64,000 bases of DNA from Nitrospirota bacterium (GTDB lineage: Bacteria > Nitrospirota > Nitrospiria > Nitrospirales > Nitrospiraceae), in assembly GCA_963701855.1 (NCBI GenBank), contig CAVPBK010000006.1:320001-384000 (forward strand), written 5' to 3'. Made by a program: the position numbers and the translations under genes. Within the stretch, counting starts at the first letter, position 1, and each line of letters starts with the position of its first letter. Below, piece after piece: positions 40,627 to 41,909 of the stretch. The notes under the pieces were generated by a model that had not been told where the DNA came from, searched no databases, and was given only the letters and a program-made list of their open reading frames with translations.

Positions 40627-40724
40627 CGTCCTGGCTGCCTGTGGAACTCGGCGTGTCTTCCCTCCGATTCCGGACACACTTGCTTTCCTCGCATTCTGCC
40701 CACAGTGACCTTGTATCTTGCGCC

Positions 40725-40890
40725 CAAGGCGACAAGGATACAGCTTATCATCAACCCGGGCATGATAGACCGACGTGACCGAGGTCTTCAAAGACCGTGG
40801 GGCAGCGAGGGTCGTCATGCCCTTCTACGGAACGAGCCCGAACAGTTGCGTGGGCCATTGAGCCCGTATCATGCAAGGCCGGGCCACCAA
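40725..40890 (+). ncRNA. Bridge RNA (target-binding and donor-binding loops)
   Basis: Two stem/internal-loop/stem modules whose loop strands match the reconstructed target (CGTGACC, GGGGCAG) and donor (ACAGTTGC, ATGCAAG). Ends approximate. Confidence 0.85.
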
Positions 40891-40900
40891 GGAGGACGTG

Positions 40901-41848
40901 ATGACGAGTACTCAGGTCTTTGTCGGTATTGATATCTCCAAGGCGCAGTTGGACCTCGCCCTCCGACCGGAGGGGCAGTTCTCCGCTCCCAACAACGAGG
41001 CCGGATTTGCTCAGGTGCTCGAACGTCTGAACGCCGTGCACCCCACGCTGGTGGTGTTGGAAGCCACCGGCGGGGTGGAGAGTCCGCTCACGGCGGTATT
41101 GGCCGCCGCCGGGGTGCCGGTCGTCGTGGTCAATCCGCGACAGGTGCGCGACTTCGCCAAAGCCACCGGGCGGCTCGCCAAAACCGATGCGTTGGACGCC
41201 CAGACGTTGGCGCACTTCGCCGAGGTCATGCGACCGGAGCCGCGACCCCTGCCGGATGAGCAGACCCAGGCACTGGCGGCGATCCTGACGCGTCGCCGGC
41301 AACTCGTCGAGATGCTGACGGCGGAGAAGAACCGCCTGGGGATGGCTGGCAAGCCGGTACGCAAGAGCCTGCGCACCCACATTGCCTGGCTCGAGCGGGA
41401 ATTGAGCCACACGGACCGCGGCTTGGCCCAGGCGATTCGGGAGAGTCCCGTGTGGCGTGAGAAGGAGGCGCTCTTGCGGAGCGCACCCGGGGTGGGGCCC
41501 GTGGTGACGACGACGTTGCTGGCGACGCTGCCGGAACTTGGCACGTTGCCCGGCAAACAGATTGCCGCGCTGGTGGGGGTGGCCCCACTGAATCGTGACA
41601 GCGGGACATTGCGCGGGAAGCGCACGGTCTGGGGCGGCCGGGCGCAGATCCGGGCCGTGCTCTATATGGCCGCGCTCGTGGCGGCGCGCTTCAATCCTGT
41701 CATACGTGCGTTCTACCAACGCCTGCGCGCCGCGGGCAAGACGAAGAAGGTGGGACTGACCGCTTGTATGCGGAAGCTGCTGATCATTCTGAATGCGATG
41801 CTGAAACATCGGACCCCATGGCGCACAGAACTGGTTCAGTGTGCTTGA
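40901..41848 (+). CDS. IS110 DEDD recombinase/transposase, intact
   Basis: VGIDISK, VLEATG and KTDALDA (D-E-D-D); C-terminal [10 protein letters not shown] serine motif; AAGGAGG RBS. Confidence 0.95.
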
Positions 41849-41909
41849 CAACCAAGACAGTTGCTGCCCCCTATAAACAGGCCGGATCTGGAGTCAAGAT
41901 TTCGACCGG

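What the first reader, a model, noticed from the sequence alone, without database searches (positions are those of the whole stretch)
40701..41890. IS110 bridge RNA whose target guides spell the terminal inverted repeat of IS3 elements: an RNA-guided IS that parasitises other ISs
SEEN: the element runs from CT (40710-11) to CT (41864-65). Removing it restores CAGTGAC-CT-GCCCCCTATAAACAGG; circularising it gives the donor ACAGTTG-CT-TGTAT. The left non-coding end folds into two stem/internal-loop/stem modules. Module 1 (outer stem GGGCATGA 40758-65/TCATGCCC 40815-22, inner GGTCT/AGACC) exposes CGTGACC (40774-80), matching left target GTGACC, and GGGGCAG (40799-805), the exact reverse complement of CTGCCCC. 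Module 2 (GCCCG/CGGGC, inner GGGC/GCCC) exposes ACAGTTGC (40842-49), equal to the left donor, and ATGCAAG (40871-77), the reverse complement of CTTGTAT with one G-T wobble. KNOWN: this is the IS621 bridge-RNA architecture, and IS3-family ends begin 5'-TG. INFERENCE: the programmed target TGACCTGCCCC is an IS3/IS407-type terminus (compare the IS3 end TGACCTGCCCGG at 40201). The element would therefore home into, and probably inactivate, the ends of another IS family. IR-targeting IS110 relatives are known for Tn21-type IRs; I do not know whether IS3-end targeting has been described.
Basis: partly seen in the sequence, partly recalled or inferred. Interest (0 to 1): 0.92.

Follow-up and report, generated by a model that had tools for sequence, protein, structure and literature searches.

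The report
RNA-guided IS110 element targeting IS3 ends
This is a small RNA-guided jumping gene whose guide RNA is set to the first eleven bases of the end of another family of jumping genes (IS3/IS407 type), so it lands inside them; it is a clear example of a kind of targeting that is already known.

Summary
Window 40712-41863 is a 1152-bp IS110-family element with a DEDD/Tnp recombinase and a 5' bridge RNA, flanked by CT cores. The genome holds four near-identical copies, all at TGAC-CT-GCCCCC.

The two-module RNA fold holds across 80 relatives: 96% of cells pair and 18 of 26 pairs show compensatory change. Its target-loop guides covary with the flanking DNA, while the donor loops and element ends stay constant.

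The restored site TGACCTGCCCCCT equals the published IS407A inverted repeat. In the window it abuts a decayed IS3-family integrase gene. The other three copies lie in short IS3-end relics or a miniature element.

A metagenome scan gave 14 further insertions at TGACCT|...|GCCCC. They come from lineages whose recombinases are 61-95% identical to this one and use three different guide forms. An AU test rejects a single clade (p 0.005).

That insertion disables the IS3 end is inference. Novelty is limited. IS4321/IS5075 target Tn21-family inverted repeats, and ISEc21 targets IS3-family transposase genes. I found no report of targeting the IS3 inverted-repeat tip in the library searched. New member of a known kind; interest moderate.

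The parts
40706..40711 (-). Terminal six bases (TGACCT as read on the + strand) of the right inverted repeat of the targeted IS3-family element. This is left target TGAC plus the core CT (40710-11). The IS110 insertion cut these bases off from the rest of the repeat.
   Evidence: The same TGACCT precedes all four genome copies.
40712..41863 (+). IS110-family (IS110 group) insertion sequence of 1152 bp between the two CT cores. It has no terminal inverted repeats and no duplication other than the shared core.
   Evidence: Three intact copies with 0-2 substitutions, and one of 1154 bp with two 1-nt insertions.
40714..40719 (+). TATCTT, a -10-like hexamer. It gains a -35 only when the ends are joined in a circle.
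   Evidence: Read. TGTATCTT is nearly invariant in 80 relatives. The promoter function is inferred.
40758..40822 (+). Target-binding module of the bridge RNA. Outer stem 40758-40771 with 40810-40822; inner stem 40783-40786 with 40793-40796. The internal loop carries the left target guide CGTGACC (40774-80) and the right target guide GGGGCAG (40799-805).
   Evidence: for the stems and compensatory changes. for guides covarying with flanks.
40836..40884 (+). Donor-binding module of the bridge RNA. Outer stem 40836-40 with 40880-84; inner stem 40852-55 with 40862-65. The loop carries the left donor guide ACAGTTGC (40842-49) and the right donor guide ATGCAAG (40871-77; one G:T wobble against CTTGTAT).
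   Evidence: Loops and element ends are both conserved across the family.
40901..41848 (+). Recombinase gene of 315 aa (RuvC-like DEDD domain plus Tnp domain), preceded by AGGAGG at 40890-95. An in-frame ATG at 40871 lies inside the donor loop and is probably not the start.
41845..41850 (+). TTGACA, a -35-like hexamer overlapping the stop codon. In a circle it lies 17 bp from TATCTT (13 bp of right end, CT, then TG).
   Evidence: Read. CTTGAC is conserved in most right ends. Inferred by analogy with junction promoters reported for ISEc21/ISEc11 (PMC11187229).
41857..41865 (+). Left donor ACAGTTG plus the right-hand core CT (41864-65).
41866..42872 (-). Remainder of the targeted IS3-family element. 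It begins with the inner part of its right inverted repeat (GCCCCCTATAAACAGG...). It holds frame-broken orfB pieces (41938-42576 with rve and rve_3; 42531-42866) and is truncated at its 5' side.
   Evidence: 97.6% identity over 964 bp to the copy at G000:C5:84.8-86.0 kb, with homology starting at about 42872.
38975..40201 (-). Neighbouring, apparently intact IS3-family element (orfA 39855-40169, orfB 39025-40041). Its ends are TGACCTGCCCGG at 40201 and TGACCAGCCGGG at 38975. These are near-cognate sites that are not occupied.

Best explanation
Window 40712-41863 is an active or recently active IS110-group insertion sequence that moves by bridge-RNA-guided recombination.

The proposed cycle is as follows. 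The element excises as a circle in which its ends abut (ACAGTTG-CT-TGTAT). This joint brings a -35 (TTGACA) and a -10 (TATCTT) 17 bp apart. From there the left-end RNA and the recombinase are made. The RNA folds into two stem/internal-loop/stem modules. The donor loop pairs with the circle junction. The target loop pairs with both strands of TGAC-CT-GCCCC. The DEDD/Ser recombinase then exchanges strands at the shared CT.

That 11-mer is the outermost part of the terminal inverted repeat of IS407-type IS3-family elements. The element therefore lands six bases inside IS3 ends, always reading into the IS3, at either the left or the right repeat. It also lands in short IS3-end relics and miniature derivatives.

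Shown here: the anatomy, the copy number, the junctions, the RNA structure by covariation, the guide-target covariation, and the identity of the target as an IS3-family end. Inferred: the circle and its promoter, the chemistry (by homology to IS621 and ISCro4), and that splitting TGACCT from the rest of the repeat disables that IS3 end.
For: Pfam DEDD_Tnp_IS110 (1.3e-28) and Transposase_20 (2.8e-19). ISCro4 (9t56) and IS621 (8wt6) are the best solved relatives over residues 6-307.

Four copies, 3 of 4 intact, all at (G/A)TGAC-CT|...|CT-GCCCCCT.

RNA: z -3.6. On 80 sequences, 96.2% of cells are paired and 18 of 26 pairs are compensatory. 0 of 500 shuffles reach the observed values.

Guides: left guide 5.13/6 against 2.96 permuted (maximum 3.43 in 2000 permutations). 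Right guide 4.37/5 against 1.70 (maximum 2.28).

Target identity: IS407A inverted repeats are TGACCTGCCCCCT / AGGGGGCAGGTCA (PMC2877748), and ISPa32 has TGACCTGCCCCC (PMC7378034). An rve/rve_3 gene lies next to the window copy. The right flank of L003 matches the right repeat of the IS3 copy on C5 at 40 of 46 aligned positions. The flanks of L002 and L004 match that of L001 at 36/45 and 34/45.

Metagenomes: 14 loci carry both a recombinase and a TGACCT|TGTATC left junction. IS3-type domains lie in the right flank of L120, L134, L136, L138 and L152, and tblastn adds L121. L136 is a left-repeat insertion and the others are right-repeat insertions.

Lineages with 61-95% recombinase identity use three guide forms: CGTGACCG, TTGACCTT and ATGACCTC. 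They fall in four clades, and one clade is rejected at p-AU 0.0048.
Against: No circle junction was seen among contigs of four public runs, and no raw reads were available.

Contigs from RNA libraries cover the element, but DNA carry-over cannot be excluded.

Eleven perfect TGACCTGCCCC sites in the genome are unoccupied, so the element is far from saturating its targets. A near-cognate IS3 end 500 bp away (40201) is also empty.

Many occupied sites are not next to an IS3 gene. No IS3 domain was found in the right flanks of L002, L003, L004, L095, L107, L111, L122, L126 or L150. For these, the IS3 origin of the site rests on 30-45 nt of similarity or on the 11-13-mer alone. L128 and L130 are ambiguous.

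The metagenome loci were ascertained with a pattern that fixes the right target, so their number says nothing about frequency.

The junction was not found in 400 other genomes of the phylum. The 7 pattern matches were all chance hits without an IS110 left end, and the reversed control pattern gave 8.
Confidence: 0.88

Rival explanations
1. The match to IS3 ends is incidental. The guide simply specifies an 11-mer that is moderately common in G+C-rich genomes, and IS3 ends are one place among several where it occurs. There is no adaptation to IS3 elements.
For: Eleven unoccupied TGACCTGCCCC sites exist. By eye, several lie in ordinary sequence rather than in IS3-like ends. Several occupied sites have no IS3 gene nearby. 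L128 and L130 flanks resemble no IS3 end clearly.
Against: All 4 genome copies lie in sequence that continues as an IS3-type repeat beyond the 11-mer. In two lineages the guide begins exactly at the IS tip, TGACCT. At least three lineages with different guide forms hold the same target while their nearest relatives have other targets.
Confidence: 0.07
2. The IS3-like flank is not a target but cargo. The mobile unit would be larger than 1152 bp and carry the GCCCCC... segment with it, so that similar right flanks reflect co-transposition.
For: The right flanks of L001, L002 and L004 are 34-36 of 45 alike.
Against: L003 has a different right flank beyond the first 9 bases. Metagenome copies have many unrelated IS3-type flanks. 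Across 80 relatives, similarity ends at the CT cores. The right guide pairs with exactly the first bases of the flank.
Confidence: 0.02
3. The copies are dead relics. The left-end structure is a conserved leader, the guide matches are fossil, and no transposition occurs now.
For: No circle junction was found. Copy L004 is frameshifted. A 19-nt stump of the left junction survives at G000:C11:175467.
Against: Three copies are intact and differ by 0-2 substitutions in 1152 bp. In run X2, contigs break at 40704-40706 into at least three different left flanks. The element stands in runs of at least 12 studies.
Confidence: 0.05

Closest known systems
IS621 of Escherichia coli (IS110 group; bridge RNA; Durrant et al. 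2024, PMC11208160; structures 8wt6-8wt9)
   Same: Same recombinase architecture, E 4.7e-40 over residues 7-307. The non-coding left end lies upstream of the gene. The RNA has a 5' target loop and a 3' donor loop, each with a left guide identical to the top strand and a right guide complementary to it. The core is CT. There is no target duplication.
   Different: The natural IS621 target is a REP-type sequence, ATCAGGCCTAC (passage seen). Here the target is the tip of an IS3-family inverted repeat. No experiment exists for this element.
ISCro4 bridge recombinase (PDB 9t56)
   Same: Best-scoring solved relative, E 1.7e-43. The GIDxSK, EAT, KTDxxDA and SG motifs are aligned.
   Different: Only sequence similarity was tested. 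I did not look up its natural target.
ISEc21 (IS110 family, upstream non-coding region; Siddiquee et al. 2024, PMC11187229)
   Same: An RNA-guided IS110-family element whose natural target lies inside IS3-family elements (passages seen). The ecological logic is the same: it lands in another IS.
   Different: [quoted passage not shown] This element targets the terminal 11 bases of the inverted repeat. The ISEc21 transposase is 358 aa and belongs to a cluster of 345-385 aa. This one is 315 aa, the size given there for the IS621/IS492 branch.
IS4321 / IS5075 (IS1111 group; Partridge and Hall 2003, seen only as a reference title)
   Same: [quoted passage not shown]
   Different: They belong to the IS1111 group, with the guide RNA downstream of the gene and subterminal inverted repeats. 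Their target is the inverted repeat of Tn21-family transposons, not an IS3 end. The paper itself is not held.
Rfam RF02234, sX15 (Xanthomonadaceae sRNA)
   Same: It is the only Rfam family that matches the left end. The match is full length (model 1-159) in the window and in 6 of 15 relatives tested.
   Different: All scores (28-44 bits) are below the gathering score of 55. All matches are on the strand antisense to the bridge RNA. The element is not a member.

Membership tests
IS110 family, IS110 group (bridge-RNA elements) | Recombinase with an N-terminal RuvC-like DEDD domain (PF01548) and a C-terminal Tnp domain (PF02371) | tested here: met
   PF01548 at 100.1 bits (cut-off 29) and PF02371 at 69.7 bits (cut-off 21.3); aligned to ISCro4 and IS621 over residues 6-307.
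IS110 family, IS110 group (bridge-RNA elements) | Catalytic motifs, namely the DEDD acidic residues and the SG serine of the C-terminal domain | tested here: inconclusive
   In the alignment, GIDISK, LEATG, KTDALDA and DSG line up with the ISCro4 motifs. Which residues are catalytic is taken from the mention of DEDD and the SG motif in PMC11187229 and from recall. I made no residue-by-residue check against a structure.
IS110 family, IS110 group (bridge-RNA elements) | No terminal inverted repeats and no target-site duplication; the same core dinucleotide at both junctions | tested here: met
   CT at 40710-11 and 41864-65. Flanks are otherwise unrelated and the ends are not inverted repeats.
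IS110 family, IS110 group (bridge-RNA elements) | A long non-coding left end upstream of the gene that folds into two internal-loop modules | tested here: met
   189 nt from 40712 to 40900..
IS110 family, IS110 group (bridge-RNA elements) | Target-loop guides match the target and change with it; donor-loop guides match the element's own ends | tested here: met
IS110 family, IS110 group (bridge-RNA elements) | A circular intermediate with abutted ends that creates a promoter | tested here: inconclusive
   The sequence would give TTGACA, 17 bp, TATCTT. No contig with the joint was found in 4 runs, and contigs cannot exclude it.
IS110 family, IS110 group (bridge-RNA elements) | The RNA is expressed and bound by the recombinase, and recombination depends on it | not testable with these tools
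   Only contigs of RNA libraries could be laid. They do not show transcription.
IS3 family, IS407-type end (the target) | A terminal inverted repeat beginning 5'-TG, with the sequence TGACCTGCCCCCT | tested here: met
   The restored window site TGACCTGCCCCCT is 13 of 13 identical to the IS407A consensus printed in PMC2877748 Table 2.
IS3 family, IS407-type end (the target) | Adjacent orfA (HTH_Tnp_1) and orfB (rve, DDE integrase) reading from the left to the right repeat | tested here: met
   For the window copy only decayed orfB remains (rve, rve_3). A full orfA plus orfB lies in the 97.6%-identical copy on C5 and beside L136. This is not met for L002, L003 and L004, whose sites are short relics.
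IS3 family, IS407-type end (the target) | Assignment of the targeted elements to the IS407 subgroup by transposase phylogeny or ISfinder | not tested
   No ISfinder access. The subgroup label rests on the repeat sequence alone.
Rfam RF02234 sX15 | Score at or above the gathering threshold (55 bits) on the modelled strand | tested here: not met
   30.1 bits in the window. The best relative scores 44.3 bits. All matches are antisense to the element.

The most novel reading that the evidence does not exclude
The tip of IS407-type IS3 elements may be a stable niche that bridge-RNA elements have entered or kept several times independently. Three guide forms occur in four recombinase clades. Under this reading these IS110 lineages are true hyperparasites of IS3 elements. 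Each insertion splits the six terminal bases from the repeat and immobilises that IS3 end until the IS110 excises precisely. Over time this would contribute to the many short IS3-end relics in which the copies are found. Programmable RNA guides would then be used in nature for conflict between transposons, and could be read as a natural, reversible IS3 off-switch.
Probability: 0.3. Interest if true: 0.6.

Novelty: new member of a known kind. Interest (0 to 1): 0.42.

Why it matters
The locus is a clean natural example of how a programmable guide RNA is set in the wild. The 11-base target coincides exactly with the most conserved, multi-copy, horizontally travelling part of another transposon family. 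Such a site is a safe landing place that will be present wherever IS3 elements go.

It extends the published list of mobile-element targets of IS110/IS1111 elements to the IS3 repeat tip. That list already holds Tn21-family repeats, attC sites, REP sequences and the IS3 transposase gene.

The polyphyletic spread of this specificity suggests selection for it. If insertion does silence IS3 ends, it is a documented case of transposon-on-transposon parasitism with consequences for IS3 dynamics.

Practically, the family alignment gives about 80 natural guide-target pairs with a constant donor, which is useful for learning guide rules.

The mechanism itself is ordinary for the family.

Tried and rejected
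1. Rfam gave only sub-threshold, antisense sX15 matches, so no curated RNA family covers the bridge RNA.

2. I looked for an IS110 gene beside the C5 IS3 copy whose repeat tip is replaced exactly at the core. None was found within 2.2 kb, and the odd junction occurs only once in the genome.

3. The phylum-wide pattern search for the left junction gave 7 matches in 6 of 400 other genomes. All were chance hits without a left end, and the reversed control gave 8. It therefore yielded no further copies.

4. Public runs. The stretch stands in runs of at least 12 soil, rhizosphere and mine studies. Laying 2 DNA and 2 RNA runs, all contigs, showed no circle joint and no precise-excision joint. RNA-library contigs cover 40705-41872 in X16 and 40706-40915 in X19, but they run on into flanks and may be DNA. 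One joint, 41346 to 41710 in X19 with a 23-nt side, is too weak to use.

5. Of the 61 metagenome loci, 33 had no recognisable recombinase within reach. Some have under 600 nt upstream and others have 3 kb. I left them unexplained and out of all counts. L150 has the recombinase and the guides, but my pattern found no left junction.

6. tblastn with four IS3 proteins of this genome found IS3 genes in only 6 of 54 right flanks longer than 150 nt. That denominator includes the 33 loci above.

7. Literature. The searches found no report of an IS110-family element targeting an IS3 repeat tip. Partridge and Hall 2003 is not held. Supplements were not opened. Supplementary Fig. 11 and the target logos of PMC11187229, and its GitHub tables for more than 300 ISfinder entries, could contain such a case.

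8. The rows L057 and L087 (short open frames) were dropped before the tree. L013 has a 5.5-unit branch and is unreliable.
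Full report
**What is there**

Window 40712-41863 is a 1152-bp unit bounded by CT at 40710-11 and 41864-65. It holds one gene, 40901-41848 on the + strand, of 315 aa behind AGGAGG. The gene carries the two Pfam domains of IS110-family recombinases: DEDD_Tnp_IS110 at 100 bits and Transposase_20 at 70 bits. Its best solved relatives are the bridge recombinases ISCro4 (9t56, E 1.7e-43) and IS621 (8wt6, E 4.7e-40), aligned over residues 6-307.

The genome (G000, 15 contigs, 4.3 Mb) has four copies. L001 is the window copy. L002 and L003 differ from it by 2 and 1 substitutions. L004 has two 1-nt insertions that break the frame.

**Boundaries and target**

All four copies are flanked by (G/A)TGAC-CT on the left and CT-GCCCCCT on the right. 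Their flanks are otherwise unrelated on the left, and they diverge on the right after 9 to about 40 bases. I fetched 80 loci that encode relatives of the recombinase. They are mostly Nitrospira and other Nitrospirota, with some Gemmatimonadales, Dehalococcoidia and others. In them, similarity begins sharply at CT|TGTATCT and ends at ...AAGACAGTTG|CT. The unit therefore has neither terminal inverted repeats nor a target duplication beyond the shared core, as expected for the IS110 group.

**The RNA**

The 189-nt left end folds better than its shuffles: -76.9 against -61.95 +/- 4.13 kcal/mol, z -3.6. On an alignment of 80 distinct left ends (A1), RNAalifold recovers two stem/internal-loop/stem modules.

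I dropped three predicted pairs that join the two invariant donor guides. The remaining 26 pairs are 96.2% paired, against 86.3 +/- 0.4 in column shuffles and 34-51% when the 3' partners are slid. Eighteen pairs have changes on both sides, in 207 cells against 51 +/- 10 expected. None of 500 shuffles reaches any observed measure.

In window coordinates the target module is 40758-40771/40810-40822 with an inner stem 40783-86/40793-96. The donor module is 40836-40/40880-84 with an inner stem 40852-55/40862-65. The first 45 nt, including the hairpin at 40712-40742, are variable in sequence and length across relatives. They lie upstream of the likely transcription start, so I do not count them as part of the RNA.

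**Guides**

The donor-loop strings (ACAGTTGC; TGCAAG) and the element ends (ACAGTTG-CT; CT-TGTAT) are both nearly constant across the family. The target-loop strings vary, and they vary with the flanks.

I measured this on 64 unique rows from the window and the genome-contig loci, which were chosen by protein similarity only. The left guide is identical to the left flank at 5.13 of 6 positions on average. With flanks permuted the figure is 2.96 +/- 0.12, with a maximum of 3.43 in 2000 permutations. The right guide is complementary to the five bases after the core at 4.37 of 5, against 1.70 +/- 0.16 with a maximum of 2.28. Related rows inflate such tests, but the effect is large.

Seventeen rows match poorly on one side and are listed. 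An example is L081, whose flanks fit neither guide.

For the window element, the left guide CGTGACC equals GTGAC plus the core C, and it adds one base outside the IS3 tip. The right guide GGGGCAG is the exact complement of CT-GCCCC. The second core base is not matched by the left guide (G instead of T). The right donor guide has one G:T wobble.

**The target is an IS3-family end**

- *Literature.* IS407A inverted repeats are printed as TGACCTGCCCCCT / AGGGGGCAGGTCA (PMC2877748; I read section 8 with Table 2). ISPa32 of the IS3 family has TGACCTGCCCCC (PMC7378034, one passage). The restored window site is identical to the IS407A consensus at 13 of 13 bases.
- *Context in the window.* The site is followed, on the minus strand and reading towards it, by frame-broken orfB pieces with rve and rve_3 domains. 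These are 97.6% identical over 964 bp to a copy on contig C5 that still has orfA and orfB. The window remnant is truncated near 42872.
- *The other three copies.* L002 lies in a unit of about 107 bp with TGACCTGCCCCC at both ends, which looks like a miniature derivative. The right flank of L003 matches the right repeat of the C5 IS3 at 40 of 46 aligned positions. The flanks of L002 and L004 match that of L001 at 36 and 34 of 45. None of these three has an IS3 gene within 1.6 kb, so they are short relics.

**Elsewhere**

I scanned metagenome contigs with the 18-base right junction and got 61 loci. This pattern fixes the right end and the right target but not the left target.
- 14 loci have a recombinase and a left junction TGACCT|TGTATC: L094, 102, 111, 114, 120, 122, 123, 126, 128, 130, 134, 137, 148 and 152.
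- 4 have another left target: L097, 129, 139 and 143.
- 1 (L150) has the guides but no junction that my pattern could find.
- 9 are cut within the recombinase gene.
- 33 show no recombinase within reach. I left these aside.

Right flanks carry IS3-type domains in L120, L134, L136, L138 and L152, and tblastn adds L121. In L136 orfA and orfB read away from the insertion, so that is a left-repeat insertion. In the others orfB reads towards it, so they are right-repeat insertions. Other flanks resemble these ends over 30-45 nt: L123 and L122 resemble L120, L126 resemble L152, and L095, L107, L114 and L121 resemble L134. L111 and L150 weakly resemble the C5 end, and L128 and L130 resemble none clearly.

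**Several lineages, one target**

The recombinases of the IS3-tip loci are 61-95% identical to the window's. They use three forms of left guide: CGTGACCG, TTGACCTT and ATGACCTC. The last two begin exactly at the IS tip and include the full core.

On a maximum-likelihood tree of 78 recombinases they fall into four groups. Relatives with other targets lie closer to them, for example L012 at 86% identity with target GGGC-CT-GTCCC. At least three changes are forced by well-supported branches. The tree with all 13 held together is 59.9 log-likelihood units worse, p-AU 0.0048.

Three caveats apply. The IS3-tip rows were ascertained by the target-bearing pattern, whereas the others were ascertained by protein similarity. 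I had seen the tree before running the test. Exchange of left ends between lineages would look the same as independent gains or losses.

**How it most likely works**

By homology with IS621, ISCro4 and ISEc21, the element excises as a circle. The joint would place TTGACA (41845-50) 17 bp from TATCTT (40714-19). Both hexamers are conserved in the family. A junction promoter is reported for ISEc21 and ISEc11 (PMC11187229, passage).

The RNA made from this promoter bridges the joint and the IS3 tip, and strands are exchanged at CT. Orientation is fixed by the asymmetric target, so the recombinase gene always reads into the IS3.

The insertion separates TGACCT from the rest of the repeat by 1152 bp. 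I infer that this end can then no longer be used by the IS3 transposase. This is not shown.

I found no direct evidence of activity beyond near-identical copies and multiple left flanks in public assemblies. No circle joint was seen, and RNA-library contigs are not proof of transcription.

**What is known, and novelty**

Bridge or seek RNAs of IS110 and IS1111 elements are established (PMC11208160 and PMC11187229; passages, plus section 13 of the latter). Targeting of other mobile elements is also established:
- IS4321 and IS5075 target Tn21-family inverted repeats. I saw only the reference title, and the paper is not held.
- ISKpn4 and ISPst6 target attC sites.
- ISEc21 targets a conserved stretch of IS3-family transposase genes.

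The searches found no report of an IS110-family element aimed at the IS3/IS407 repeat tip. A 2026 preprint on IS110 expansion does not mention IS3. I opened no supplements, and ISfinder is not available here, so a named IS with this target may exist. I did not test that note.

I therefore class the locus as a new member of a known kind. The repeat-tip target and its polyphyletic distribution are the points of interest.

**Distribution**

The exact left junction was not found in 400 other genomes sampled from the phylum, including 12 of the genus and 75 of the family. The 7 pattern matches were chance hits, and the reversed control gave 8. The element does stand in public soil, rhizosphere and mine runs from at least 12 studies. 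The genome holds two further, diverged family members with other guides.

Noticed in passing
G000:C5:85980-86040 (outside the window): The full-length IS3 copy that is 97.6% identical to the window remnant ends ...CAGGGGGCAG|CGGTTACAAGGG. Its right repeat is intact up to the G after the IS110 core position, and the six tip bases (GTCA side) are replaced by unrelated sequence. No IS110 gene lies within 2.2 kb, and the junction string is unique in the genome. It could be a scar of a rearrangement at the bridge-RNA target.
   Followed up: partly
G000:C11:175467-175485 (outside the window): A stump of the left junction survives: GTGACCT plus the first 13 bases of the element (TGTATCTTGCGCC), followed by unrelated sequence. 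It is probably a deletion remnant of a fifth copy.
   Followed up: partly
window 40746-40904 (- strand); also L014, L040, L053, L070, L076, L126: Rfam sX15 (Xanthomonadaceae sRNA) matches full length, at 28-44 bits and below its threshold of 55. The matches are always antisense to the bridge-RNA region, in the window and in 6 of 15 relatives. The Rfam family may have been built on the opposite strand of an IS110-type left end, or on a real antisense RNA.
   Followed up: partly
window 38975-40201: An apparently intact IS3-family element (orfA, orfB; HTH_Tnp_1, HTH_21, rve, rve_3) has ends TGACCTGCCCGG and TGACCAGCCGGG. Each differs from the guide's target by one or two bases, and both are unoccupied although they lie 0.5-1.7 kb from the IS110 copy.
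   Followed up: partly
G000:C5:333473-334790 and G000:C10:7075-8260 (outside the window): Two diverged members of the same IS110 family (67-68% DNA identity) have their own guides and flanks: AAAGAC-CT / CT-GTCTC and GGTTTC-CT. The genome thus holds three lineages with three targets.
   Followed up: partly
L025, L026, L031 (Nitrospira genomes): A sister lineage sits at GATTGCAAGAC-CT-GACCCC. About 13 bases of left flank are conserved in three different genomes, and the right flank (GACCCCTATTTAC...) resembles the IS3-type end here. It may be another repeated or mobile target, but I did not identify it.
   Followed up: no
L048-L051, L054, L068, L071, L074 (Gemmatimonadales): Copies of one lineage lie at xx-CT-AACGAC followed by a conserved ...GCGCATCAGCTGCAAGCG... 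This looks like a REP-like repeat as target. Their left flanks match the left guide only at 3-4 of 6 positions.
   Followed up: no
L081 (Dehalococcoidia chromosome): One of three identical copies has flanks (CCAGTGAC-CT ... CT-GTGTCG) that fit neither of its guides (TCCCCC-CT / CT-TTTCA). It is either an off-target insertion or a later rearrangement.
   Followed up: no
L092-L152, 33 loci (e.g. L099/L110/L113/L147; L092/L098/L145): The 18-base right-junction string recurs in groups of metagenome contigs with shared downstream sequence but no detectable IS110 recombinase upstream, even where 3 kb is available. They may be solo right ends, other elements or chance matches.
   Followed up: no
window 40408-40626: A 72-aa open frame with a hydrophobic stretch and no Pfam match lies between the two IS3-type elements, just left of the insertion.
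   Followed up: no
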